Shown: positions 18,832-29,921, counted from the stretch's first letter. The stretch is 64,000 nucleotides of DNA from Gemmatimonadota bacterium (GCA_039715185.1 JBDLIA010000008.1:4207-68206); one strand, 5' to 3'. Numbers and translations: made by a program. The notes: generated from the letters alone by a model not told the origin.

Positions 18832-19086
18832 GCGCTCCCGCCTGACACATTTTTTCCCGACCGGTATGACGTTTGTCTGCGACATCCGGCTCCCAGCTCC
18901 GGGTCCCACTCCGTTACAGCGTTACCCGACAACGACTTAAGGGCGGTGCCGCTGATGGCACGGCGGGTGCTCACTTTCAAGCCCGCGCGTGAGCCGGGCG
19001 GCACGTCTCGGGGCGCGCAGCCCGCCAGGGCACCGTCCGGTCTCTACTTGGGAAGAGGCCGAGCCTTCTTGCGGTTGGGAGCGGGG

Positions 19087-21231
19087 ATGGGGATTCCCTT
19101 CGAGTCGAAAGCACCGCATCGAGACGGTCGAGACCCCGCACCGGGGGCGCTCGCCGATGGGCCCGGTGTGCCCACCGGCCCTGTAGATCCGGACGATCCG
19201 GCCTCCGTGCTCGAGCAGATTCCGGACGCCTTTCTGGCGTTCGACCGCGACTGGCGCGTCCAGCACCTGAACTGGAAGGCAGCGCACCTGCTGGGGGCCA
19301 GCCGCGCCGAGGTGTTGGGCCGGGAGGTATGGAGCGCGCTCCCCGAGGCCGGCGGCCTGGAGTGGGAAAGCGAACTGCGTCGCGCGGCGCAGGGGTCGTC
19401 TACGCTCCACCTCGAAAAGTACTTCCGCTCACCCGGAGCGTGGTTCGAGATCCATGCCTTCCCCAGCCGAATGGGCGTAGCGCTGTACATGCGCGACATC
19501 TCCGACCGCAAGTGGACCGAGCGGTCGCTGCGCGACTCGGATCATTTCGCCCGCACCATCCTGGCCAGCGTGGGCGAGGGCATCTTCGTGCTCGATCGCG
19601 AGCTGCGCTGCCGGCTGTGGAACGACTTCATGGCGCAGGCAACCGGCCTGACCGCCGAGGAGGTGCTGGGGCGGCCGGTGGGCGAGGTGTTCAACCTGGA
19701 CGCCAGCCCCGGCGCCGGAATCGGCCTCGGTCGTGTGTTGGAAGGCGAAGGTTTTCGCATCCCCTCGACACGCGAGTTGGTGCCCAGCACGCGCTCTCAG
19801 CGCTGGGTGGACCTCGTGCTCAGCCCTCAGGTCTCTCTGGAGGGTGAGGTGGTGGGGGTCGTGGGCATCATGCACGACGTGACCGACCGCCACGCGGTAG
19901 AGGAGCGGCTACTCCACTCCGCCATGCACGACCCGCTCACGGGCCTGCCGAATCGCAGCTATTTCATGGAACAGCTGCGCCAGGCCAACGATCGCGCGCG
20001 CCGTTACGAGGACTTCCACTTCGGGCTCGTGTTCCTGGACGTCGATCACTTCAAGGTGATCAACGACAGCCTCGGCCACCAAGCCGGCGACGACCTCCTG
20101 CTCCAGTTCGCCCGCAAGCTGGAGGATTGCGTCCGGCCCGGCGACATCGCCGCTCGCATAGGCGGCGACGAATTCGCCGTGTTGCTCTACGACATGGGGG
20201 ACGAGGTCGACGCCACGGACATCGCACAGCGGATCCAGTCCAGCCTGGGCAACAGGTTCGTAATCCAGGGGCGTGAAGTGTTCGTGACGCTCAGCGCGGG
20301 CGTCGCGGTCGGTACGGTAGGCTACGAGCGCCCGGAGGACCTGCTGCGGGACGCCGACACCGCGATGTATCGGGCCAAGGAGAAGGGCCGCGGGCGCTTC
20401 GAGCTCTTCGACGCCGAGATGCACAAGAGCGCGGTGGCACTCCTGCTCATGCAGACCGACCTGCAGCGCGCCGTGGAGCGCGAGGAATTCGCGCTGCACT
20501 ACCAGCCCATCTTCGACATCCGCGACGCCACGCTGGTGGGCTTCGAGGCTCTGCTGCGGTGGGAGCACCCGCGCAACGGTCTGATCGCACCGGGCGCCTT
20601 CATCCACGTCGCGGAGGACACCGGCGTGATCGTGGAGATCGGCCGCTGGGCGGCCCGCGAGGCGTGCCGCCAGTTGGGCGAATGGCGCGCGACGAGCCCG
20701 GGCGCCTCCGAGCTGTCCGTACACGTGAACCTGTCCGGCAAGGAATTCGTCCAGCCGGACGGCGTGGGCGAGATACTGGACATCGTGCGCGGCGCCGGCC
20801 TGGGCCCGGGCAGCTTGAAGCTGGAGGTCACCGAGAGCATCATCCTGGAAAACGCCGACCTGGTGGCGCGCGCGCTCGAGGAACTGCGCGAGCACGGCAT
20901 TGAGCTGTCCATCGACGATTTCGGCACCGGGTACTCTTCGCTGAGCTACCTGCACCGCTTTCCGTTCGACACGGTCAAGATCGACCAGTCCTTCGTCAGC
21001 GGCGCGGCGGCGGAGGTCAGCAATCAGGAAATCATCCGGGCGATCATCTCGCTGTCCCACAACCTGGGCATGGACGTGATCGCCGAGGGCGTGGAGACCT
21101 CGGAGCAGATGGAGATGCTGCTGCGGCTGGGCTGCGACTTCGCGCAGGGCTTCTTTTTCTCGGGGCCGATGGCGGGCGGCGACGCCGGGGCCTACATCGA
21201 CAGGGCCACGGCCACGGCGCTCGCGGGCTAG
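19087..21231 (+). CDS. PAS-PAS-GGDEF-EAL c-di-GMP turnover protein
   Basis: Two PAS-like segments, RIGGDEFAVL, FEALLRW and DDFGTGYSSL motifs. Start uncertain: the track ORF begins at 18946, and the internal Met MGIPFES at 19087 was chosen. Confidence 0.85.
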   Translation: MGIPFESKAPHRDGRDPAPGALADGPGVPTGPVDPDDPASVLEQIPDAFLAFDRDWRVQHLNWKAAHLLGASRAEVLGREVWSALPEAGGLEWESELRRAAQGSSTLHLEKYFRSPGAWFEIHAFPSRMGVALYMRDISDRKWTERSLRDSDHFARTILASVGEGIFVLDRELRCRLWNDFMAQATGLTAEEVLGRPVGEVFNLDASPGAGIGLGRVLEGEGFRIPSTRELVPSTRSQRWVDLVLSPQVSLEGEVVGVVGIMHDVTDRHAVEERLLHSAMHDPLTGLPNRSYFMEQLRQANDRARRYEDFHFGLVFLDVDHFKVINDSLGHQAGDDLLLQFARKLEDCVRPGDIAARIGGDEFAVLLYDMGDEVDATDIAQRIQSSLGNRFVIQGREVFVTLSAGVAVGTVGYERPEDLLRDADTAMYRAKEKGRGRFELFDAEMHKSAVALLLMQTDLQRAVEREEFALHYQPIFDIRDATLVGFEALLRWEHPRNGLIAPGAFIHVAEDTGVIVEIGRWAAREACRQLGEWRATSPGASELSVHVNLSGKEFVQPDGVGEILDIVRGAGLGPGSLKLEVTESIILENADLVARALEELREHGIELSIDDFGTGYSSLSYLHRFPFDTVKIDQSFVSGAAAEVSNQEIIRAIISLSHNLGMDVIAEGVETSEQMEMLLRLGCDFAQGFFFSGPMAGGDAGAYIDRATATALAG

Positions 21232-21242
21232 GCCTCCGCCGG

Positions 21243-21608
21243 TCAGCCCTCGCGGGGGGGCAGCAGCGTGGCGATCCGCCGCGCCAGCGCGCCGCGGCGA
21301 GCGACCACGCCGTCCAGCGCGTCGCGGAGATCCGGGGGGAGCCGCTCGAAGGGAACGCCGTCGCGGTAGTGGCCGAGCAGGACCGCCGAGATGACCTCGT
21401 CGTCGTGGTCGTCCCACCGAAAGGCGGCGTCCGTGCCGCGTAACGCGAGCGCCGCGAACGCCGTGCGATCGGCGCCGTCCACGCGCACCTCATCCACGCG
21501 TCCGTCCGTGCGCGTCTGCATCAGGTAGATCGCGCCGTCGTCCGCGGCGTTCATCGCCACCCCCGCGCGTTCCACATACCCTTCGCCCCACTCGCCATCC
21601 GTCAGCAT
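21243..21608 (-). CDS. Hypothetical protein
   Basis: 121 aa with non-junk composition. Convergent with the GGDEF-EAL gene. No motif recognised. Confidence 0.4.
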   Translation of the reverse strand: MLTDGEWGEGYVERAGVAMNAADDGAIYLMQTRTDGRVDEVRVDGADRTAFAALALRGTDAAFRWDDHDDEVISAVLLGHYRDGVPFERLPPDLRDALDGVVARRGALARRIATLLPPREG

Positions 21609-21703
21609 TCGTCCCCCTTGTCCGGTGGGCCGCGAGAGGCATAGCTTTGCGCCATGCGTTTCTCCCGTCGCCGCCCGAACTTACGCCGCGTGCGCATCGC
21701 CTC

Positions 21704-22861
21704 ATGAACGACGCCACTCTGCTCGGCGCGAGTGCCCTCGTTGCCCTCCTGGCCCTGGCCACGGCGGCCGTAGCCTGGGCCTCCAAGATTCGGTCTGATC
21801 GCCGGCACCGAATCGTCCTGGAAGAGGCGATTCGCTCCAGGGATAAGCAGATCGCGGCGCTCGAGCAACAGGTCGATTTCCTGCGCCAACTGGAGGCCGT
21901 GAAGTTCGTAGAGCGCTACATAGCGACGCGGCGCGGGCTCCAGCAGCGGCTGGACCGGCTCGCGGCGGACGAAGAGGCCGGACGCGCGCACGAGCGCCAC
22001 ATCGAACGCGAGATCCGCGAGCTGTCACGCTCCGATGAGGAGCGCCAGGAGGACGTGCAGCGGCTTCGAGCAGAGCTCTCGCGCAATCAGCAGGAGGCGC
22101 ACCGGCTGGAGCAGGCGATCGACGCGGTGTACTCGATCGGCGAAATCCAGGTGGACGAGGTGCGTCGCGAGGTGGCCAGGCGCAGGCGACTGGCGGTAGA
22201 GCTCAGGGGTCGCATCGAGCGCATGGCGCTGGACGCGGACGCGAAGGTGGCCGAGATCGCGCGCTTGAGCGCCGAACTCGAGAGCGGCCGCGAAGGCATG
22301 GAGGCGCTCAGGCGCGAGCTGGACCTGACGCGCTCCGCGGGACCCATCGTCGACGGGCTGCTCGGCATCGACGAGGATCTCGCGGACCAGGTGGACGACA
22401 TCGACCACCACCTGGCGCAGGCGGGCCTGGACCTGGGCTCGGGCGGCGACGCCGACACCGTGGGCCATTTCCTGGCCGTCGTCGAGAGGGAGCGCTCACA
22501 GCGCGGGAAGCTGCTCGGCGCCGGGGGGGGCAAGGCGACGGACGGCGCCGCGGCCCAGAGGGGTCGCGAGGCTACGGCCGCGGCGGAGCGCGGGGGCGCG
22601 GGGACCGAAGAGGAGGCGGCGGAATGGGTGGCAGACGCGGTAGGACTCGAAGGCGGCCCCGAGCAGGATCCGTGGGACGCGGTGACGGCGGGCTCGAGCG
22701 GCAACAACAACGGCACCAACGCGGACGCGGCCACGCCGCCGCCTCCGGAGCCGGAGTCCAGGCGCCCGGTGGCCGTGCCGGGTCCGGTCGTGGCGGAATC
22801 CCCGCCGGCCGAGGAGCACAGCCCGGAAGAGGAGCCGCCGGAACCTCGCGTCTGGTACTGA
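21704..22861 (+). CDS. Membrane-anchored coiled-coil protein with acidic/Pro-rich tail
   Basis: Start trimmed to MNDATLLGASALVALLALATAAVAWA (TM). About 200 aa of heptad-like charged helix (RLRAELSRNQQEAHRLEQ...), then a PPPPEPE tail. Confidence 0.6.
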   Translation: MNDATLLGASALVALLALATAAVAWASKIRSDRRHRIVLEEAIRSRDKQIAALEQQVDFLRQLEAVKFVERYIATRRGLQQRLDRLAADEEAGRAHERHIEREIRELSRSDEERQEDVQRLRAELSRNQQEAHRLEQAIDAVYSIGEIQVDEVRREVARRRRLAVELRGRIERMALDADAKVAEIARLSAELESGREGMEALRRELDLTRSAGPIVDGLLGIDEDLADQVDDIDHHLAQAGLDLGSGGDADTVGHFLAVVERERSQRGKLLGAGGGKATDGAAAQRGREATAAAERGGAGTEEEAAEWVADAVGLEGGPEQDPWDAVTAGSSGNNNGTNADAATPPPPEPESRRPVAVPGPVVAESPPAEEHSPEEEPPEPRVWY

Positions 22862-22892: not shown

Positions 22893-25367
22893 ATGAGCGG
22901 GCCGGACTACTACGCGCTTCTAGGCGTCTCCCGCGACGCCGAACTCGCCGCCATCAAGCAGGCGTACCGTCGGCTCGCGCTGCGCTACCATCCCGATCGG
23001 CGCGGCGGCGATCCGTCCGCGGCCGAGGCGTTCAGGCTCGTCACCGAGGCCTACCGCGTCCTGCGCGATCCGCGCAAGCGACCCATCTACGACCGCTTCG
23101 GCAGCACCGGGCTCACCATTCAAGAGGGCCCCGCGGCGGACCTCACCATGGCGGAGGCGCTGGAGACCTTCGTGCGCGACTTCGGGGCCTTCTCCGACAT
23201 CGGCACCGAGGCCGCGGCGGCCGCGGAGGCCGCGCTGCGGGCCGACCCGGCGGGGCGGCGGACCACGCGGGACCGGCCGCGCGCGGGCCCCGTTCGCTCG
23301 CCTGAGACCGCGCGTTCGGGGCAGCGAACCCAGCAGCGGCGGGAGGCACGCCCACCCGGCCGCAAGGCCCCGGTGCGGGCGGTGGCCCTCACGTTGGAGG
23401 AGGTCGATGCGGGCGTCGTGCGGGCGCTGCGGCCGCCCTGCGGCGCGTGCCGGGGCAGCGGCGAGCGCCGCGGCGAGCTCCAGCGTGTGTGCGAGCGCTG
23501 CGACGGCGTGGGCGACGTTCAGGTGCTCAAGCGCACCCTGCTCGGACCCACCAAGGCGCCGCAGCGCTGTCCGGACTGCGGCGGCTCGGGGCGGCGCCCC
23601 CTGCCCCCCTGCCCCGCGTGCCGTGGCACCGGCGATCTGCCGAACAGCAACGCGCACGTGGTGGAAATCCCGCCGGGCGTCAGGGACGGCGGGAGGATCG
23701 AGGTCGGGCCGGCGGACGACCGCCTGGACGTCCGCGTCCAGGTCATGGAGCACGAGCGCTTCGTGCGCGTGGGCGACGACCTGCAGGCCGAGCTGCCGCT
23801 CACCTTCACTCAGGCGGCGCTGGGCGCCGTGATGGACGTGCCCACGCTGCGGGGCCGGGGCCGGGTGCGGGTGCCGGCCGGCACTCAACCCGGTGAGGAG
23901 CTGCGCGTGCAGGGCGACGGCCTGCCGGAGACGAGCGGCGTGGGCCGGGGAGACCTGCTGCTACGCACCACGCTGACGGTGCCGCGCAAGCTCGCCAAGG
24001 AAGACCGCAAGCTCCTCAAGGAGTTGGAGTTCGGCGGGGGACGCATCGGCGGCTTGCGCTACATCCTGCCGGCGGCGGCGCTGCTGATCGCGACGGTTTC
24101 AATGGCGCTGTGGTACTGGCAAGGCCCGCAGCGCGCCCCGGGTGGCGACGGGCTGGTGGCGGCCGGCCCGCCGGGCGCGGCGGCTCCCGAGCTGGCGAGC
24201 ACGCTCCCCGCGGCGACCGAGCCGGCCGCGGGTGGCGGCGCCCAGCGCGCCGACCCGGAGCGAGCCGGCGGCGGGCCGACTCAGCCGGAGCCGCCGCCAG
24301 CCGGACCGGAGGAGGTCGCCGGGGCGCTGGCCGTCCTCCCGGCGGCGACGGGGGCTGACGCGGCGGCGGGGTCCGACGATGCGCGCCTGCTGGTGGGTGG
24401 CGCGGCCACGTGCGCGGGCTTGGACGGCGGCCGGCTGCGTTGCTGGGGAAGCGGACGCGGCCCGCTCCGCCTGGCGGCGATCCCGCGTACCGGCGACCCC
24501 AGATCGATTTCGGTCGGGATGCGGCACGCGTGCGTGGTGGACGTGGCAGGCGCGCTGAGCTGCTGGGGGGCCAACGAATCGGGCCAGATCGGCGACGGCG
24601 GCACGCGCGACCGACGCGGTCCGTGGCCGGTCCGCGCGCAGGCGCCTTTCGCGGAGGTGGCGGTGGGCGCCGGCCATACGTGCGCGCTGGGCGAGACCGG
24701 GGCGCTGAGCTGCTGGGGCGCGATAGCGGGCGGTCGCTCGGCTCCCGGCGTAGCCCTGGACGGAGCCATGTACGGCGGGCTCGTGGGCGGCTGGACGCAC
24801 GCCTGCGCGCTCGACACCGACGGCTACGCCCACTGCCTGGGCGGCAACAGGTTCGGGCAGGTGGGAGACGGGACGACGCGGGACCGAGACGTCCCAGCGC
24901 CGGTGGCGTCCGACGCCCGCTTCGTCGCCCTCGCGGCCGGCTCCGGGCATACCTGCGGCGTGGACGTTGCCGGTCGCGCCTGGTGTTGGGGACGGAACGA
25001 TGGCGGACAGCTAGGCCTGTCCGGCGGGGCACCCGCGGTCAGGCCGGTCGAGCTGGAAGCTCCGGTGGTATTCGTGTTCGTAACGGCGGGCGCGCGCTTT
25101 ACGTGCGCGCTGGATGAGGAGGCACGGGCATGGTGTTGGGGAGCCAACGGATACGGGCAGTTGGGAACGGGCGACACGGACGGTCGCGCGCGGCCCTCAC
25201 CGGTGCGGGGCGGGTTGCGCTTCCGCACCATCCAGGCGGGCGCGGCGCACGTGTGCGGGCAGACCACCCAGGGCGAGCTGGTGTGTTGGGGGGCGAACGT
25301 CGCCGGCCAGTTGGGCGACGCGTCGCGCGGCAACCGCTCGAGTCCGGTGCTCCTGCCGGGCGACTAG
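22893..25367 (+). CDS. Membrane-spanning DnaJ (J domain + CR zinc finger + DnaJ C-terminal region) fused to a 7-repeat RCC1-like beta-propeller
   Basis: J domain DYYALLGVSRDAELAAIKQAYRRLALRYHPDR. Cys-rich zinc-finger-like region containing CxxCxGxG motifs (CGACRGSG, CPDCGGSG, CPACRGTG) plus CERCDGVG. TM LRYILPAAALLIATVSMALWYW. Seven CWG..xxGQ[LIV]GDG-type repeats. Confidence 0.85.
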   Translation: MSGPDYYALLGVSRDAELAAIKQAYRRLALRYHPDRRGGDPSAAEAFRLVTEAYRVLRDPRKRPIYDRFGSTGLTIQEGPAADLTMAEALETFVRDFGAFSDIGTEAAAAAEAALRADPAGRRTTRDRPRAGPVRSPETARSGQRTQQRREARPPGRKAPVRAVALTLEEVDAGVVRALRPPCGACRGSGERRGELQRVCERCDGVGDVQVLKRTLLGPTKAPQRCPDCGGSGRRPLPPCPACRGTGDLPNSNAHVVEIPPGVRDGGRIEVGPADDRLDVRVQVMEHERFVRVGDDLQAELPLTFTQAALGAVMDVPTLRGRGRVRVPAGTQPGEELRVQGDGLPETSGVGRGDLLLRTTLTVPRKLAKEDRKLLKELEFGGGRIGGLRYILPAAALLIATVSMALWYWQGPQRAPGGDGLVAAGPPGAAAPELASTLPAATEPAAGGGAQRADPERAGGGPTQPEPPPAGPEEVAGALAVLPAATGADAAAGSDDARLLVGGAATCAGLDGGRLRCWGSGRGPLRLAAIPRTGDPRSISVGMRHACVVDVAGALSCWGANESGQIGDGGTRDRRGPWPVRAQAPFAEVAVGAGHTCALGETGALSCWGAIAGGRSAPGVALDGAMYGGLVGGWTHACALDTDGYAHCLGGNRFGQVGDGTTRDRDVPAPVASDARFVALAAGSGHTCGVDVAGRAWCWGRNDGGQLGLSGGAPAVRPVELEAPVVFVFVTAGARFTCALDEEARAWCWGANGYGQLGTGDTDGRARPSPVRGGLRFRTIQAGAAHVCGQTTQGELVCWGANVAGQLGDASRGNRSSPVLLPGD

Positions 25368-25369
25368 CG

Positions 25370-27538
25370 ATGTTCTCCCAGAAGGGCGTCTCGCGCTCGA
25401 CCTGGCTGCGCGGCGTGCTCGCCGGCGGAGCGATTCTCTGGGCGCTGGGCGCCTCGGCCGAGCCGGCCGCGGCGCAGGATCGCACGACCGAGGCGTGCCG
25501 CGCATACGTGAGCGCGGGAGGCGCCGTACCGGTGGCCCCCACGTCCGATCCCGACGAGGTCGAACGGCTGGTGTCGGCGGCGCTCCAGGCGAGCCTGCTG
25601 GAGGACCACGAGACCGCCGGACAGTTGCTCCAGCGCGCGCGGCGGTTGGCCCCCTCGGACCCCGACGTGGCCTACTACATGGGCCGCGCGCAGGTGGCCG
25701 CGGGTGACTCCGCCAACGCCATCGCCTCCTATTGCGCCTACCTGAATCTGGCGCCCAACGCCCCCGATCGCGCCGTGGTGCAGGCCACCGTCGCCGGCCT
25801 GCTGGATGGCGTACCCGCGCCGTCCCCCGCCGTCGAGGCGAGCGCGCCCGAGGGGTCTGGCCTGGCGTTCGGCCGCCTGGAGATCCTGGCCGTCGTGGGC
25901 GTCCTGTTGGCGATCCTGCTGGCCCTCCTGGCTGCCGGCACGGACGGGTCGCGCGTCCTGACGCGGGCGCGAGCCTACCTGGCCGAGCGCCGCCAGCGCC
26001 GCGTGGGAAGCATCGCCGCGTCCGCGCGCCGCGGAGTCTCGGAGGCCTGGCTAGAGCACGGCCTCAGGGATCGTGGCTCTCCGGGCCGGAGGCTGGAGCG
26101 GCTATCAGAAGCCCTCGAGCGACTCGGCGACCGCGAGATAGCCACGCTCGAGAGGCTCGAGGCGCGGCTCGCCGCGGGCGCGCGCGCGCTGACCCGTGTC
26201 ATGGTCCGGCGCGACACCGCCTCCGGTGAGCGATCGCGCGAAGGGGAGCTCATCCCGCGGGGTGGCGACAGCGTCGCCATCGTGGTCATGCTCGCCATCG
26301 TGGCGGTGGCCGTCGTGGCGCTCAACACCATCCTGCTCCACGACGCGGTCGCCCAGGCGTTGCCTGCGCCCTCTTCCTTGACCGGGGTGGACGTCGCCCT
26401 GCTGGTGGCATTGGGCCTCGGCATCGCCGCCCTGGGCGCTGGCCTGCTGTGGTACGCGCTCGAGAGCGTGGAGGCGGCCAGCCTGCACACCCTTCTGTTC
26501 AAGCTCACGCCGTTCCTGCTGGTGTTCGGATTGACCACCGTGCAGGTTCTGGCCTACACGGTGGTAAGCGGTCGGCTGGACATTCCGGGCCGCCTGGACG
26601 TCGAACCGGGCACCATGCTCTATCCGGTGCTGAGCTACCTGGTGGTTCTCATCGGCGGGCTGATCCCGCTGTCTCTGGCCACCACCGGGTACTCGCTCTT
26701 CAACGGCCTCCAACGCGCGCGCGTGGCGACCAGTGAGCGGCGGCTGCAACGGGCCCTCGCCGACCGTCCGGAGGAGACTCTGGCGCGCATCGCCGAGCAC
26801 ACCGAACGGTTCCACCACGAGCTGATTCACGGCTTCAGGGACGCCGCGGGCATCGGCGGGGAAGACGAGGAGTCGGTGGCTCTCATCGTCAGGGAGGAGA
26901 TCACGGCGCTTCAGCGCACCGCCCCGGCGGCGGTCGCCGTGCGTCCCACCACCGAGGTGCTCGGGCCGTTCCTCCTGGACCTCGGCGTGGTGGCCGCGTG
27001 GGCGCTCGTGGTCGGTCACGCGTTCCAGCTGTTTTCGCGCCCCGGCGGCGGGCTCGATCCGGTAGCTTGGGGAATCGCAGCGCTGGCCGCCGCGCTGGCG
27101 GTCACCGCCGCCGGCATCGTCGCCAAGCGCGTGCTGTTCGGGCGCGCCGGGCTCGGCACCACGCCTTCCCTGCCGCGCGGCCGGCCGGGCAAGCTCGTGC
27201 TCGGATTCGCGGCGGCGTGCGGGCTCCTCGGCGGGTTGCTCCTTCTCGCGCTCGCGTACGGCCTGCAGCCGCTTTCCAGCGGCCCGACGCTCAACCTGCT
27301 GTACGGCGGCCTGCTCACTCTCCTGCTGGCGCTCGCCGCCGCCGCGCTGGACGACGCCATCCTCGCTCTCGCCACTCTGCTCCGGATGACCGGGCACGGG
27401 AGCGTCTGGCTCTTGGCCGAGATCGCCGCCGGGGCGTCCTTCGTGGCCGAGGCCGCGCTCGCCACGCTCGCGCTGGTCGCCAGCGGCGGAGCCGGCAGCC
27501 GGCGCGAAGGCGCCGGAGAGCCGGACGCGGCGGGCTAG
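25370..27538 (+). CDS. Polytopic membrane protein with N-terminal signal peptide and TPR-like periplasmic segment, hypothetical
   Basis: Start at ATG 25370 (MFSQKGVSRSTWLRGVLAGGAILWALGASA), 2 nt after the DnaJ-RCC1 stop. About 10 hydrophobic helices. The track ORF start (25130) lies inside the upstream gene. Confidence 0.6.
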   Translation: MFSQKGVSRSTWLRGVLAGGAILWALGASAEPAAAQDRTTEACRAYVSAGGAVPVAPTSDPDEVERLVSAALQASLLEDHETAGQLLQRARRLAPSDPDVAYYMGRAQVAAGDSANAIASYCAYLNLAPNAPDRAVVQATVAGLLDGVPAPSPAVEASAPEGSGLAFGRLEILAVVGVLLAILLALLAAGTDGSRVLTRARAYLAERRQRRVGSIAASARRGVSEAWLEHGLRDRGSPGRRLERLSEALERLGDREIATLERLEARLAAGARALTRVMVRRDTASGERSREGELIPRGGDSVAIVVMLAIVAVAVVALNTILLHDAVAQALPAPSSLTGVDVALLVALGLGIAALGAGLLWYALESVEAASLHTLLFKLTPFLLVFGLTTVQVLAYTVVSGRLDIPGRLDVEPGTMLYPVLSYLVVLIGGLIPLSLATTGYSLFNGLQRARVATSERRLQRALADRPEETLARIAEHTERFHHELIHGFRDAAGIGGEDEESVALIVREEITALQRTAPAAVAVRPTTEVLGPFLLDLGVVAAWALVVGHAFQLFSRPGGGLDPVAWGIAALAAALAVTAAGIVAKRVLFGRAGLGTTPSLPRGRPGKLVLGFAAACGLLGGLLLLALAYGLQPLSSGPTLNLLYGGLLTLLLALAAAALDDAILALATLLRMTGHGSVWLLAEIAAGASFVAEAALATLALVASGGAGSRREGAGEPDAAG

Positions 27539-27679: not shown

Positions 27680-28657
27680 ATGAGCGACGCGCTCATCCTG
27701 GAGAAGGTCACGAAGAGCTACGCGGAGCACGTGGCGGTGCGCGACTTGAGCATCCGCGTACCGACCGGCTCCGTCTACGGCATCCTCGGTCCCAACGGCG
27801 CGGGCAAGTCGACCACGCTACGCATGGTGATGAACATCCTGCTCAGGGACGAAGGAACCATTCGCCTGCTCGGTCGAGACCCCGAAACGGACCGGACGGT
27901 GCTGCGCAGGGTCGGCTATCTGCCCGAGGAGCGTGGGCTCTACAAGAAGATGAAGGTCATTGACGTGATCGTCTTCTTCGCGCGCCTGAAGGGGGTGGAC
28001 GCGACCGAGGCAAGGCGGCGCGGCGGCGCCTGGCTCGAACGCATGGGGCTGGAAGAGTGGGTCCACGCCAACGTCGATACCCTGTCCAAGGGCATGCAGC
28101 AGAAGGTCCAGTTCATCACGACCGTGCTGCACGACCCGGAAGTGCTGATCCTGGACGAGCCGCAAGCCGGTTTGGACCCGGTGAACCAGGAGGTTCTGCG
28201 GGAGACGATCCTCAACGCCAGCCGGTCCGGGCACACCGTGATACTCAGCACGCACAACATGGCGGAAGCCCAGCGCATGTGTGATTCGGTGTGCATCATC
28301 GCCGACGGAGCCAAGGTGCTGGAAGGAGACGTGCGCGAGCTGCGGCGCCGGCATCGCGGCGATCGCTACGTGGTCGAATTCGATCGCGACACGGAGGAAG
28401 CGCGTCGGTTCATGGCCCAGAGTCGGTTGATCGGAGACGCCCGCGAGTCCGAGGAGGCCTGGCACGTGGAGTTGGCCGAGGGCGCCGATGCGCGCTCGTT
28501 CCTGGGTCAGCTCAGCGCCCTGGACATGCCCTTGACGCGCTTCGAGCACCTGCAGCCAACGCTGCACGAGATCTTCGTGAGCCACGTGGGCAACGCCGCT
28601 CACCCCCGGCGTCGAGACGAAGCCCAGCTCCACGCCGAGGAGGCGCTCCGTGCGTGA
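27680..28657 (+). CDS. ABC transporter ATP-binding protein (ABC-2/NatA-like)
   Basis: Walker A GPNGAGKST, signature LSKGMQQK, Walker B LILDEP. Confidence 0.9.
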   Translation: MSDALILEKVTKSYAEHVAVRDLSIRVPTGSVYGILGPNGAGKSTTLRMVMNILLRDEGTIRLLGRDPETDRTVLRRVGYLPEERGLYKKMKVIDVIVFFARLKGVDATEARRRGGAWLERMGLEEWVHANVDTLSKGMQQKVQFITTVLHDPEVLILDEPQAGLDPVNQEVLRETILNASRSGHTVILSTHNMAEAQRMCDSVCIIADGAKVLEGDVRELRRRHRGDRYVVEFDRDTEEARRFMAQSRLIGDARESEEAWHVELAEGADARSFLGQLSALDMPLTRFEHLQPTLHEIFVSHVGNAAHPRRRDEAQLHAEEALRA

Positions 28658-29921
28658 GATCCTGATCGTCCTGCAGCGCGAGTTTCTGGAGCGCGTGCGA
28701 TCGCGGGCCTTCCTCATCGGCACGCTCGCCTTTCCGCTGCTGTTCATCGCGCTCATGGCGATGCCGGCCATGGTCGAGGACAGGGCCGAGCAGAGGCGCA
28801 TCGTGGTCGTCGACGACGCCCCCGCGGGCGTGGGCGAGCGCTTCGAGCAGATCCTTACGGCCGAGCGCGAGGACGGGGCCGCCAACAGCTACGACGTCGA
28901 ACGCACGGGCGGGACGTTCGCCGACCGGCGTGAGGAGCTGAACGCGCGCGTCCTGGACGAGACGATCGACGGTTGGGTGGCGCTCCCCGCGGGCGTGCTG
29001 GAGGACAACCTGATTCACTTCCGCGCCAGCAACATCGCCAACCGCACGGTGCTTCGGGATCTGCGCAACGCCGCCAGCCAGGCGGTGCAGTCGGTCCGGC
29101 TGGAGAGAGCCGGCCTGGACGTGGCGGAGATCGCTTCGCTCGTGCGCAGCGTGGACGTCGATGAAGCGCAGATCACCGCCAGCGGAGAGGAGGGCGGCGG
29201 AGCGTTCTCCACGTTCTTCTTCGCCTACGGCGTGACCTTCCTGATCTACTTCATCACCTTCTTTTACTCGCTCGCGGTGATGCGCAGCGTGCTGGAGGAA
29301 AAGACGAACCGTATTTCGGAGGTGCTCGTCAGCTCCGTGCCCGCGAGCAGGCTCCTGGCGGGCAAGATCATGGGGGTCAGCGCCGCCGCCATCCTCCAGG
29401 TGGGAATCTGGGTGGGGATCGTGACCCTCGCGGTGAGCCGATCCGACACCCTGATCGAGCGCTTCGGGATCCCCGCGGAGGTGTTCGCGGCGATGAGCAT
29501 AGACCCCCTGACGCTGGCCCAGTTCCTCAGTTTCTTCCTGCTGGGATTCGTCCTCTACTCGTCTCTCTTCGCGGGGCTCGGCGCGGCGGTCACCTCCGAG
29601 CACGAGGCGCAGTCCTATCAGTTCATCCTGCTGATTCCGCTGATCCTGCCGCTGCTATTCCTGAGCGCGATCACCGGGGAGCCCACGGGCCGCATCGCCA
29701 CCACCCTGGGGCTGATCCCGTTCACCGCGCCCATCGCCATGCCGATGCGAATCGCGTCCGCGCCCATACCGGCGTGGCAGATCGCCGGCTCGCTGCTCGG
29801 GATTCTCCTCGCGGCGACGGTCGTGGCCTGGATCGCCGGCAAGATCTACCGGGTCGGGATGCTCGCCACGGGCCGCAAGGCGTCGCTTCGGGATCTGAGG
29901 CGCTGGCTGCGCGCAACCTAG
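28650..29921 (+). CDS. ABC-2 family transporter permease (NatB-like)
   Basis: 423 aa. One N-terminal TM, a large extracytoplasmic loop, then five C-terminal TMs. Overlaps the ATPase gene by 8 nt. Confidence 0.8.
   Translation: MREILIVLQREFLERVRSRAFLIGTLAFPLLFIALMAMPAMVEDRAEQRRIVVVDDAPAGVGERFEQILTAEREDGAANSYDVERTGGTFADRREELNARVLDETIDGWVALPAGVLEDNLIHFRASNIANRTVLRDLRNAASQAVQSVRLERAGLDVAEIASLVRSVDVDEAQITASGEEGGGAFSTFFFAYGVTFLIYFITFFYSLAVMRSVLEEKTNRISEVLVSSVPASRLLAGKIMGVSAAAILQVGIWVGIVTLAVSRSDTLIERFGIPAEVFAAMSIDPLTLAQFLSFFLLGFVLYSSLFAGLGAAVTSEHEAQSYQFILLIPLILPLLFLSAITGEPTGRIATTLGLIPFTAPIAMPMRIASAPIPAWQIAGSLLGILLAATVVAWIAGKIYRVGMLATGRKASLRDLRRWLRAT

What the first reader, a model, noticed from the sequence alone, without database searches (positions are those of the whole stretch)
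22893..25367. Full-length DnaJ fused through a transmembrane helix to a seven-bladed RCC1-like propeller
Seen: one 824-aa ORF combines four parts. First, a J domain with HPD. Second, a Cys-rich zinc-finger-like region and a DnaJ C-terminal substrate-binding-like region. Third, a single hydrophobic helix (LRYILPAAALLIATVSMALWYW) and a Pro/Ala-rich spacer. Fourth, seven repeats of the type H.C.....G...CWG.N..GQ.GDG. Established: J domains act in the cytoplasm with DnaK, and RCC1-type propellers are protein or ligand-binding modules. Membrane-anchored J proteins such as DjlA are known, but I am not aware of a characterised one with an extracytoplasmic propeller. Inference: it may signal across the membrane from an envelope ligand or partner to the DnaK system. 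It is flanked by a membrane coiled-coil protein and a polytopic membrane protein starting 2 nt after its stop.
Basis: partly seen in the sequence, partly recalled or inferred. Interest (0 to 1): 0.6.

Follow-up and report, generated by a model that had tools for sequence, protein, structure and literature searches.

The report
Membrane-embedded DnaJ with periplasmic propeller
This real, conserved gene encodes an almost complete DnaJ co-chaperone that crosses the inner membrane once and carries a seven-bladed propeller outside the cytoplasm; with two neighbouring membrane proteins it forms a gene module, so far seen only in Gemmatimonadota, that probably brings the cell's single DnaK chaperone to a dedicated membrane complex.

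Summary
ORF 22893-25367 (824 aa) contains:
- a J domain with HPD
- four CxxCxGxG zinc-finger motifs
- both DnaJ C-terminal domains and the dimerisation helix
- one hydrophobic helix (388-409)
- a variable Pro/Ala linker
- a seven-bladed RCC1-like propeller (AF2 pLDDT 92; TM 0.89 to UVR8)

It has no G/F region and scores below NCBI's DnaJ equivalog cut-off. The fusion is not an artefact: at least eight independent assemblies carry it, with every domain conserved and only the two linkers variable.

An outside location for the propeller is supported by the positive-inside rule and by one invariant Cys pair per blade, as in the extracellular ACR4 propeller. All five other RCC1 proteins of this genome also carry export signals.

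The neighbours are functional partners. The upstream coiled-coil anchor precedes related membrane DnaJs in other Gemmatimonadota (E 2e-33). In one relative the DnaJ is fused to a homologue of the downstream polytopic protein (E 2e-18). In another genus a DnaJ-TM-Ig-RCC1 gene is followed by the same periplasmic TPR domain.

What the module does is untested. Transmembrane signalling remains only one possibility. I class it as a new variant of the membrane-anchored J proteins.

The parts
21704..22861 (+). Upstream partner. It has an N-terminal TM anchor (LLGASALVALLALATAAVA), about 230 aa of cytoplasmic coiled coil with the conserved motif TRSAGPIVDGLLGID, and an acidic Pro-rich tail ending in PEPRVWY.
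   Evidence: KD profile. No Pfam, NCBIfam or PDB relative. Homologous genes sit immediately upstream of membrane DnaJs in L028 (35% identity over 245 aa, E 2e-33), G139/L033 (E 9e-43) and L039 (E 3e-32). The start at 21704 comes from ortholog alignment A3.
22905..23093 (+). J domain (residues 5-67) with an intact HPD at 33-35.
   Evidence: Pfam PF00226, E 1.8e-23. Matches the E. coli DnaJ J domain of the DnaK complex 5nro_B, E 4.5e-18. Invariant in 7 orthologs.
23139..23240 (+). Conserved helical motif (residues 83-116, DLTMAEALETFVRDFGAF...AAAAAEAALRA) in the place of a G/F region.
   Evidence: Invariant in alignment A1. Predicted helices 86-99 and 102-116 (low confidence). Related motifs occur in G139, G018 and P0260-type proteins.
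23241..23372 (+). Hypervariable basic Arg/Pro/Ala linker (residues 117-160).
   Evidence: Its length varies by tens of residues among orthologs and it shows no conservation.
23439..23633 (+). Zinc-finger-like region (residues 183-247) with four complete CxxCxGxG motifs.
   Evidence: Pfam PF00684, E 8e-11. Cys positions. All invariant.
23655..24029 (+). DnaJ C-terminal substrate-binding domains and dimerisation helix (residues 255-379).
   Evidence: Pfam PF01556, E 5e-23. The TIGR02349 profile is matched to position 351 of 354 at residue 379. PDB 6jzb DnaJ, E 4e-42, and Ydj1 1nlt.
24054..24119 (+). Single transmembrane helix (residues 388-409), about 8 residues after the dimerisation helix.
   Evidence: KD 1.8. 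The flanks carry 7 K/R on the N side and 1 on the C side. AF2 predicts a helix at 387-410. The flanking residues GGLRY..PAAALL...WYW are invariant.
24120..24377 (+). Hypervariable Pro/Ala/Gly spacer (residues 410-495), extracytoplasmic.
   Evidence: Length and sequence are not conserved. pLDDT is below 30.
24378..25367 (+). Seven-bladed RCC1-like beta-propeller (residues 496-824) with one invariant Cys pair per blade, plus the stop codon.
   Evidence: Pfam WD40_RLD / RCC1 / RCC1_2. AF2 pLDDT 92.0, pTM 0.91. Foldseek finds UVR8 at TM 0.89, then HERC2, RCC1 and ACR4. The 14 Cys are invariant.
25370..25939 (+). Downstream partner, N-terminal part: Sec-type signal peptide (residues 1-30, ASA|EP), periplasmic TPR domain (about 36-165) and TM1 (172-190).
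   Evidence: Sequence and KD profile. Weak Pfam TPR_9 and TPR_19 hits. Homologous (37% identity, E 9e-10) to the TPR protein P0287 encoded after G018's DnaJ-TM-Big-RCC1 gene; P0287 scores TPR_9 at 61.7 bits, above the cut-off.
25952..27538 (+). Downstream partner, conserved core: cytoplasmic Arg-rich helical region (residues 195-300), TM2-5 (304-438), cytoplasmic helical loop (439-529) and TM6-10 (530-703).
   Evidence: KD profile. Residues 241-463 are homologous to the membrane domain fused to the DnaJ CTD in G139 (32% identity over 240 aa, E 2e-18; tblastn 1.3e-19 in the same frame as CTD-II). A collinear profile match to the membrane domain of P0260-type fusions gives E 8.7e-5 and probability 60%, against E 0.68 for the reversed control.
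27680..29921 (+). ABC ATPase (27680-28657) and ABC-2 permease (28650-29921). They are adjacent only within this genus, so membership in the module is doubtful.
   Evidence: NCBIfam hits to DrrA/GldA-like ATPases, below their cut-offs. Synteny holds in L012, L015 and L016 but is absent next to the related systems in L028, L033 and L039.

Best explanation
The gene encodes a specialised DnaJ-type co-chaperone built into the inner membrane. It resembles a class-A DnaJ but lacks the G/F region.

Shown or strongly supported:
- The cytoplasmic half has everything needed to activate DnaK and to hold unfolded clients: a J domain with HPD, two zinc centres, both substrate-binding domains and the dimerisation helix.
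- About eight residues after the dimerisation helix the chain crosses the membrane once.
- A flexible spacer then leads to a seven-bladed RCC1-like propeller, which carries one Cys pair per blade and lies outside the cytoplasm.
- The protein belongs to a conserved module. One partner is an N-terminally anchored cytoplasmic coiled-coil protein encoded just upstream. The other is a polytopic membrane protein encoded 2 nt downstream, which has its own periplasmic TPR domain.

Inferred:
- The J protein is probably a dimer, anchored with its tip at the membrane like farnesylated Ydj1.
- It recruits the genome's single DnaK to the cytoplasmic face of this complex.
- Its substrate-binding domains probably act on the Arg-rich helical regions of the polytopic partner and/or on the coiled-coil protein, assembling, remodelling or gating the complex.
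- The propeller and the TPR domain form a periplasmic unit added in this lineage. That unit binds an envelope component, which either positions the complex or modulates it.
For: Architecture.

Not an artefact: six metagenomic orthologs at 59-66% identity, plus G039 and G057, all have every domain conserved and only the two linkers variable.

Specialised paralogue: the genome also has two ordinary J proteins in 383-aa open frames and only one full-length Hsp70. On the tree of DnaJ portions, housekeeping DnaJs form a clade (support 96/92) that excludes this group.

Topology:
- Seven K/R residues precede the helix and one follows it.
- All 14 Cys, paired i/i+10 in each blade, are invariant. ACR4's extracellular RCC1-like propeller has one disulfide per blade, and its authors read this as an adaptation to the outside.
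- The other five RCC1 proteins of this genome have the same Cys pairs together with lipobox signal peptides or a TM anchor.

Propeller fold: pLDDT 92, TM 0.89 to UVR8.

Module:
- The three genes are contiguous in all orthologous loci, with gaps of about 35 nt and 2-14 nt.
- The coiled-coil partner is homologous and directly upstream in three further systems.
- G139 has the DnaJ CTD-II and a homologue of the downstream protein's core in one reading frame.
- G018, from another genus with a DnaJ portion about 38-41% identical, pairs DnaJ-TM-Big-RCC1 with a signal-peptide TPR protein homologous to the downstream protein's periplasmic domain.

Topological consistency: G139 has no TM segment between the DnaJ and the helical region. 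That region must therefore be cytoplasmic, which matches the layout signal peptide, TPR (outside), TM1, helical region (inside) in the window.
Against: - No experiment or expression data exist. All members come from uncultured MAGs or metagenomes.
- The TM segment is only moderately hydrophobic, and no dedicated topology predictor was available.
- Disulfide formation is inferred from sequence pattern only.
- The polytopic and coiled-coil partners match no known family, so what the complex does is unknown.
- Homology between the window's polytopic module and the commoner P0260-type fusion is only moderate. An HMM search failed, and profile-profile comparison gave probability 2.8% at first and 60% only after adding G139.
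- In G139 the DnaJ gene has a frame change upstream of CTD-II. This may be a sequencing error or a pseudogene.
- The G018 variant has HPE instead of HPD and no coiled-coil partner, so not every variant need work through DnaK.
- Synteny within the genus is partly explained by close relatedness.
Confidence: 0.55

Rival explanations
1. Transmembrane sensor. Binding of an envelope ligand or partner to the periplasmic propeller changes the availability or oligomeric state of the cytoplasmic DnaJ. In this way envelope status is reported to the DnaK system, for example by titrating DnaK and altering a stress response.
For: An extracytoplasmic binding domain, one TM helix and a cytoplasmic effector is the classic receptor layout. 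RCC1 propellers are also combined with Ser/Thr kinase domains in related metagenomic proteins (P0043, P0044, P0051, P0061, P0062). The TM flanks are invariant. From general knowledge, overproduced DjlA activates the Rcs envelope pathway through DnaK.
Against: The propeller is joined by an unconserved spacer of about 85 residues that varies in length and is predicted to be disordered. Such a spacer is a poor conduit for conformational signals. Related systems have no periplasmic domain at all. The protein retains complete client-binding domains, which a pure signalling J protein would not need. No regulator gene is part of the conserved core.
Confidence: 0.2
2. General membrane-tethered DnaJ. 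It concentrates DnaK at the inner membrane for the biogenesis or quality control of many membrane proteins. The propeller only anchors or localises it in the envelope, and the neighbouring genes are not specific clients.
For: The full set of generic client-binding domains is conserved. It is analogous to farnesyl-anchored Ydj1 / DNAJA and to tail-anchored Hlj1 and DjlB/C, which act on membrane proteins (PMC9798423; PMC8215388).
Against: The system is very rare. The coiled-coil marker was found in 3 of 401 genomes of the phylum and in 4 species representatives among 185,579. A general housekeeping role would predict wide distribution. The gene fusion with the polytopic module and the constant coiled-coil neighbour argue for dedicated partners.
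Confidence: 0.15
3. DnaK-driven transmembrane motor. The polytopic module forms a conduit. The periplasmic propeller and TPR domain capture a polypeptide. The membrane-proximal DnaJ hands the emerging chain to DnaK, which pulls it into the cytoplasm or out of the membrane. This would be a bacterial analogue of Pam18 with mtHsp70 at the TIM23 translocase, or of Sec63 with BiP.
For: In this system a J protein with client-binding domains lies within about 8 residues of the membrane and is fused, in relatives, to a membrane domain of about 9-10 TM segments. Hsp70 and ATP lie on the side that would be 'trans' for inward movement. Two protein-binding modules are on the opposite face.
Against: This rests entirely on architecture. 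The polytopic module resembles no known channel or transporter. No such process is known in bacteria. Relatives without periplasmic domains would lack the receptor part.
Confidence: 0.07
4. Artefact, or an entirely cytoplasmic protein. Either the fusion results from misassembly or a frameshift, or the hydrophobic segment is not a TM helix and the propeller is cytoplasmic.
For: The assembly is a 253-contig MAG. The segment's hydrophobicity is moderate (KD 1.8). Read mapping was not possible.
Against: The same continuous ORF is present in at least eight independent assemblies from different samples. The positive-inside bias, the per-blade Cys pairs and the exported paralogues all point outside.
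Confidence: 0.03

Closest known systems
Bacterial class-A DnaJ (E. coli DnaJ; PDB 6jzb; NCBIfam TIGR02349)
   Same: J domain with HPD, four CxxCxGxG motifs, CTD-I, CTD-II and the dimerisation helix, collinear with the whole profile.
   Different: There is no G/F-rich region; a conserved helical motif and a basic linker take its place. The score is below the equivalog cut-off (259 against 377 bits). About 440 C-terminal residues are added (TM helix, spacer, propeller). It groups apart from the housekeeping DnaJs of the same order on the tree.
DjlA, and the tail-anchored DjlB / DjlC, of E. coli
   Same: These are J proteins attached to the inner membrane that direct an Hsp70 to the membrane surface (PMC8215388).
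   Different: They are class C proteins with no zinc finger or CTDs. DjlA has the reverse order, with an N-terminal TM and a C-terminal J domain. None has an extracytoplasmic folded domain. The DjlA model scores only 21 bits against a cut-off of 162.
Farnesylated class-A J proteins (yeast Ydj1, human DNAJA1/2, Arabidopsis J2/J3)
   Same: A complete class-A J protein is tethered to a membrane by its extreme C-terminus, right after the dimerisation domain, and acts on membrane-associated clients (PMC9798423). Ydj1's CTDs match residues 162-372 (1nlt).
   Different: Their anchor is a lipid on the cytosolic leaflet. They have no transmembrane helix, no domain on the far side and no dedicated membrane partners encoded alongside.
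CRINKLY4 / ACR4 receptor-kinase ectodomain (PDB 7a0j)
   Same: A seven-bladed RCC1-like propeller outside the cell, with one conserved Cys pair per blade, joined through one TM helix to a cytoplasmic effector domain.
   Different: The effector is a kinase, not a co-chaperone. ACR4 is a plant protein. Its buried N-terminal strand and cysteine-rich domain were not examined or are absent here. By Foldseek this propeller is closer to UVR8, HERC2 and RCC1 than to ACR4.
J proteins of translocases (Pam18/Tim14 at TIM23; Sec63 at the ER translocon)
   Same: A membrane-embedded J protein is physically coupled to a polytopic membrane complex so that Hsp70 works at its exit face (general knowledge; Sec63 is listed in PMC9798423).
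   Different: Those have a bare J domain without client-binding domains, and their polytopic partners are known channels. No channel function is shown here.

Membership tests
Class A J-domain protein (DnaJ / Hsp40 type I) | N-terminal J domain with an HPD motif | tested here: met
   PF00226 at residues 5-67, E 1.8e-23. HPD at 33-35 is invariant in the orthologs.
Class A J-domain protein (DnaJ / Hsp40 type I) | Gly/Phe-rich region after the J domain | tested here: not met
   Residues 68-165 are rich in Ala, Arg and Pro, not in Gly or Phe. A conserved helical motif (83-116) and a hypervariable basic linker take the place of a G/F region.
Class A J-domain protein (DnaJ / Hsp40 type I) | Zinc-finger-like region with four CxxCxGxG motifs inserted in CTD-I | tested here: met
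   PF00684 at 183-247. Cys 183/186, 200/203, 226/229 and 240/243 are each followed by xGxG and are all invariant.
Class A J-domain protein (DnaJ / Hsp40 type I) | Two C-terminal beta-sandwich domains plus a dimerisation helix | tested here: met
   PF01556 at 255-364. The TIGR02349 alignment reaches profile position 351 of 354. PDB 6jzb and 1nlt match.
Class A J-domain protein (DnaJ / Hsp40 type I) | Score above NCBIfam's curated equivalog cut-off for DnaJ (TIGR02349) | tested here: not met
   259.4 bits against a cut-off of 377.2.
Class A J-domain protein (DnaJ / Hsp40 type I) | Stimulates DnaK ATPase and delivers clients | not testable with these tools
   This needs biochemistry. The genome has one full-length DnaK that could serve as partner.
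RCC1-like domain (seven-bladed propeller) | Seven RCC1 repeats that fold into a closed seven-bladed propeller | tested here: met
   PF25390, PF00415 and PF13540 hits. AF2 pLDDT 92 and pTM 0.91 with seven four-stranded units. TM 0.89 to UVR8 and 0.78-0.83 to RCC1 and HERC2.
RCC1-like domain (seven-bladed propeller) | Guanine-nucleotide exchange activity on a Ran-type GTPase | not tested
   This is not expected for an extracytoplasmic bacterial propeller, and no GTPase partner lies nearby.
DjlA-type membrane J protein | N-terminal TM segment(s) with a C-terminal J domain and no DnaJ client-binding domains | tested here: not met
   The order is reversed and the client-binding domains are present. 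NF006948 scores 21 bits against a cut-off of 162.
CRINKLY4-type extracellular propeller | One conserved disulfide in each blade | tested here: inconclusive
   Seven invariant Cys pairs at i/i+10, one per blade. Whether the bonds actually form cannot be tested here. The precedent comes from the ACR4 structure paper.
CRINKLY4-type extracellular propeller | N-terminal strand buried in the propeller pore, followed by a TNFR-like cysteine-rich domain and a kinase | not tested
   No cysteine-rich domain or kinase is present in the sequence. The pore strand was not examined because no model coordinates were available.

The most novel reading that the evidence does not exclude
The three proteins form a DnaK-powered transmembrane machine. 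The polytopic module is a conduit. The periplasmic propeller and TPR domain act as a receptor for a polypeptide or for a damaged envelope protein. The membrane-proximal class-A DnaJ passes the emerging chain to DnaK, which ratchets it into the cytoplasm or out of the bilayer. This would be the first bacterial counterpart of the Hsp70 import motors of mitochondria and the ER, running inward across the inner membrane.
Probability: 0.07. Interest if true: 0.92.

Novelty: new variant of a known kind. Interest (0 to 1): 0.6.

Why it matters
Membrane-anchored J proteins are known, but they are minimal: a bare J domain with an anchor. This one is a complete client-binding DnaJ that is an integral membrane protein with a folded domain on the other side. 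It is encoded with two dedicated membrane partners and occurs in at least four modular variants within one little-studied phylum:
- split, with periplasmic propeller and TPR (this window)
- fused to a polytopic domain of about 4 TM segments (G139)
- fused to a polytopic domain of about 9 TM segments (L039, P0260-P0267)
- an Ig-propeller form without the coiled-coil partner (G018)

This gives a defined and testable case of how Hsp70 power can be wired to a specific inner-membrane complex in bacteria. It also shows how such a complex can acquire extracytoplasmic modules. The fusion and fission pattern supplies interaction hypotheses that can be tested directly in E. coli.

Tried and rejected
1. 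Exhaustive representative search with the whole protein. The top 150 hits were all giant multi-RCC1 proteins, so it said nothing about the architecture.
2. Homology between the window's downstream protein and the membrane half of the P0260-type fusions.
   - BLASTP gave E 0.028.
   - The first hhalign run gave probability 2.8%.
   - An HMM of the fusion halves, searched against all 19,184 ORFs of the own genome, did not recover the downstream gene.
   - Only after adding G139 as a bridge did hhalign reach E 8.7e-5 and probability 60%, against E 0.68 for a reversed control. I treat this as moderate support, not proof.
3. Large-database search with the downstream protein's core. It found only seven close orthologs and no J fusions, because the search depends on shared words.
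4. Full-length AF2 on seven sequences. Mean pLDDT was 47.5, usable only for secondary structure.
5. Promoter and terminator scan. It found nothing beyond the shuffled expectation, so the operon boundaries are unresolved.
6. PADLOC defence models and a PDB profile search for the coiled-coil partner. Both returned only generic coiled-coil noise.
7. Context of P0082, a class-C-like J-TM-RCC1 protein. It has no coiled-coil or polytopic homologue, so it is an independent combination.
8. The first frame I examined downstream of G018's gene was wrong. This was corrected.
10. Programmed recoding across the 2-nt gap between the J gene and the downstream gene was considered and dropped. The two genes are in different frames, and the downstream protein has its own signal peptide.
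Full report
**The observation**

The window holds an uninterrupted ORF at 22893-25367 (+), 824 aa. Pfam finds the following:
- a J domain at residues 5-67 (E 1.8e-23)
- the DnaJ zinc-finger region at 183-247 (8e-11)
- DnaJ_C at 255-364 (5e-23)
- RCC1-type repeats across about 496-821 (WD40_RLD, 4e-48)

HPD is at residues 33-35, and all four CxxCxGxG motifs are complete. The only hydrophobic segment is residues 388-409. The C-terminal domain has seven repeats, each with a Cys pair ten residues apart. NCBIfam's DnaJ_bact profile is matched from position 1 to 351 of 354 by residues 5-379. The DnaJ part is therefore complete through the dimerisation helix, which ends about 8 residues before the hydrophobic segment. 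The score, however, is 259 bits against a cut-off of 377. Residues 68-165 are not Gly/Phe-rich. They consist of a conserved helical motif (83-116) followed by a basic linker of variable length.

**Not an artefact**

Six full-length orthologs at 59-66% identity come from different ENA, JGI, NCBI and Logan assemblies. Two more are in species-representative genomes of the same genus (G039, which is identical to P0005, and G057). In the alignment the J domain, zinc finger, CTDs, TM flanks and all seven blades are largely invariant, while the two linkers differ freely in length and sequence. That is the signature of one selected multidomain protein.

**Topology**

No dedicated predictor was available, so the evidence is indirect, but it all points the same way.
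- There is no N-terminal signal peptide, and a J domain needs cytoplasmic DnaK and ATP (established knowledge).
- The hydrophobic segment has 7 Lys/Arg in the 25 residues before it and 1 in the 25 after it.
- AF2 predicts a 24-residue helix there (low confidence).
- All 14 propeller cysteines are invariant and form one i/i+10 pair per blade.
- The crystal structures of the plant CRINKLY4 / ACR4 ectodomain show a seven-bladed propeller with one conserved disulfide per blade. The authors interpret this as an adaptation to the extracellular environment. Cytoplasmic UVR8 and secreted BLIP-II lack the pattern (10.1101/2020.08.10.245050).
- The five other RCC1-repeat proteins in this genome each have 5-7 of the same Cys pairs. 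Each also has an export signal: four have lipobox signal peptides and one has an N-terminal TM anchor.

A propeller-only AF2 model built on 48 sequences is confident (pLDDT 92.0, pTM 0.91). It superposes on UVR8 (TM 0.89), HERC2 RLDs and RCC1, and also matches ACR4.

**A specialised paralogue**

The genome (a MAG of 3.66 Mb, 96% complete) has two ordinary J proteins, each in a 383-aa open frame, and a single full-length Hsp70. In a tree of DnaJ portions, the housekeeping and other soluble DnaJs of the order form a supported clade (96/92). That clade excludes this group, the DnaJ-polytopic fusions and the G018 variant. The sister relation between the first two of these groups is only weakly supported (84/55).

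**The neighbours are partners**

Within the genus the order is fixed: coiled-coil gene, about 35 nt, J gene, 2-14 nt, polytopic gene. Close relatedness could explain that, so I looked further afield.

1. Scoring only the DnaJ half, while candidate lengths followed the whole protein, found a set of about 810-aa proteins (P0260-P0267). In these a class-A-like DnaJ with the same substitute motif is fused to an Arg-rich helical region and a domain of about 9 TM segments.
2. Immediately upstream of one of them (P0262, overlapping it by 1 nt) lies a 341-aa protein homologous to the window's coiled-coil protein: 35% identity over 245 aa, E 2e-33. The same pair occurs in a Gemmatimonadetes MAG (L039).
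3. In G139, a Longimicrobiales MAG of another family, the coiled-coil homologue (E 9e-43) is followed by a DnaJ. Its CTD-II lies in the same reading frame as a membrane domain homologous to residues 241-463 of the window's downstream protein: 32% identity over 240 aa, E 2e-18 by BLASTP and 1.3e-19 by tblastn. This is a gene fusion of the Rosetta-stone type, and it links the J protein to the downstream gene.
   - Caveat: the G139 DnaJ has a frame change just upstream of CTD-II, in what looks like a long-read assembly.
4. In G018, from another genus of the same family, there is a 1027-aa protein with J (HPE instead of HPD), zinc finger, CTDs, TM, two Big_1 domains and RCC1 repeats. It is followed by a protein with a signal peptide, two TPR units and 2-3 TM segments. 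Its TPR units are homologous to residues 43-144 of the window's downstream protein (E 9e-10) and score above the Pfam TPR_9 cut-off.

So the periplasmic pair (propeller and TPR) travels together, and the cytoplasmic / membrane trio (coiled coil, DnaJ, polytopic module) travels together. The window's system is the union of the two.

The topologies fit. In G139 no TM segment separates the DnaJ from the helical region, so that region is cytoplasmic. In the window the chain goes out through the J protein's TM helix. The downstream protein comes back in through its TM1, after a signal peptide and the TPR domain. The window's two genes therefore look like the G139-type fusion with a periplasmic excursion inserted and split, or the reverse history.

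Whether the P0260-type membrane domain is the same module is only moderately supported. An HMM search was negative. hhalign gave 434 collinear columns, E 8.7e-5 and probability 60% once G139 was added, against E 0.68 for a reversed control.

**Distribution**

The strict ortholog occurs only in the window's genus among 151 genomes of the order. The coiled-coil marker occurs in 3 of 401 genomes of the phylum (one of the three only weakly, E 1.8e-9) and in 4 species representatives of the GTDB collection. All four are labelled Longimicrobiales or Gemmatimonadetes. The searches have limited sensitivity, so these are lower bounds.

**Mechanism**

What is shown is the architecture, its conservation, the linkage of the three genes and the propeller fold. 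The rest is inferred.
- The protein is probably a dimer, because the dimerisation helix is retained.
- It sits with its tip at the membrane, much like class-A Ydj1 / DNAJA proteins, which are anchored by a C-terminal farnesyl group (PMC9798423).
- It recruits the single DnaK to the cytoplasmic face of the complex.
- It keeps full client-binding domains and is fused in relatives to the helical and polytopic module. The most economical reading is therefore that its clients are the cytoplasmic helical regions of that module and/or the coiled-coil protein. DnaK would assemble, remodel or gate the complex.
- The propeller hangs on an unconserved spacer of about 85 residues that is predicted to be disordered. 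This argues against conformational signalling through the helix and for a binding or positioning role, probably together with the TPR domain.

I put this explanation at about 0.55, sensor-type signalling at 0.2, a general membrane DnaJ at 0.15, a DnaK-driven motor at 0.07 and an artefact at 0.03.

**Comparison with what is known**

It works like a membrane-anchored J protein (DjlA, DjlB/C, Hlj1, DNAJB12/14, farnesylated Ydj1). It is not a member of the DjlA family, because the domain order is reversed and the model score is far below the cut-off. It fails two class-A criteria: the G/F region and the equivalog cut-off.

The reviews and the large J-protein survey I could search do not mention RCC1 or this architecture. 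The Barriot et al. catalogue is not in the library, so prior listing of the domain combination in a table cannot be excluded.

Two earlier first-reader notes in this scan, neither checked, describe related things. One proposes the same gene block as a module (e1-3241558). The other describes, in another genome, a J protein with a periplasmic propeller-and-TPR region in the opposite orientation (e1-956409). A followed-up note describes RCC1-propeller receptor kinases in Gemmatimonadota (e1-3023656). I used all three as leads only.

**Verdict**

This is a real and conserved new variant of the membrane-anchored J-protein theme. It is embedded in a three-gene membrane module, restricted to Gemmatimonadota so far, whose parts are shuffled by fusion and fission. 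Its function is unknown, and the interaction hypotheses are specific and testable.

Noticed in passing
L027:4621-7701 (-) (G018:C2): The G018 relative (DnaJ-TM-2xBig_1-RCC1, 1027 aa) has HPE instead of the HPD motif, and its J-domain score is weaker (49 bits). It may be a J protein with altered or lost ability to activate DnaK.
   Followed up: partly
L033:6337-6364 (G139:C2): The DnaJ gene of the G139 fusion changes frame between CTD-I and CTD-II in a GC-rich stretch. The contig naming suggests a long-read assembly. This could be a sequencing indel or a real pseudogene. The G139 DnaJ also has only two CxxCxGxG motifs, so only one zinc centre.
   Followed up: partly
L035:1562-3283 (P0082): A 573-aa metagenomic protein combines a bare J domain (HPD), one TM helix and an RCC1 propeller with Cys pairs. 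It has no zinc finger or CTDs and none of the module's partner genes nearby. It is an independent, class-C-like J plus extracytoplasmic RCC1 combination.
   Followed up: partly
proteins P0043, P0044, P0051, P0061, P0062: Several metagenomic proteins combine a Ser/Thr kinase domain with RCC1 repeats, some also with Big_1. The same type of propeller is thus also coupled to signalling domains.
   Followed up: no
own genome: C175:18823-20904, C173:3009-5492, C236:1214-4011, C217:7236-8999: All five other RCC1-repeat proteins of the genome are exported (four lipobox signal peptides, one N-terminal TM anchor), and each carries 5-7 Cys pairs of the C-x10-CWG type.
   Followed up: yes
window 25130-25369: The 802-aa ORF listed from 25130 overlaps the end of the J gene by 240 nt. 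This is only an open GC-rich frame. The real start is the ATG at 25370, as in the orthologs. Likewise the upstream gene starts at 21704, not at the TTG at 21647.
   Followed up: yes
window 18946-21231 and 21243-21608 (-): A PAS-PAS-GGDEF-EAL protein and a small gene of about 121-137 aa on the opposite strand lie upstream of the module. They are syntenic in the orthologous loci of the genus, but were not seen next to the related systems elsewhere.
   Followed up: partly
window 22750-22861 (C-terminus of the coiled-coil protein): The coiled-coil partner ends in an acidic, Pro-rich tail with an invariant ...EEPPEPRVWY in the genus. It recalls the short C-terminal docking motifs that chaperone partners recognise, but this was not tested.
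   Followed up: no
L028:9516-10232, L029:1797-2924, L039:9416-11944: The genes next to the DnaJ-polytopic fusions differ between loci: a monofunctional transglycosylase, an Omp85 protein, and a PD40/M28 peptidase. All are envelope-related, but none is conserved.
   Followed up: no
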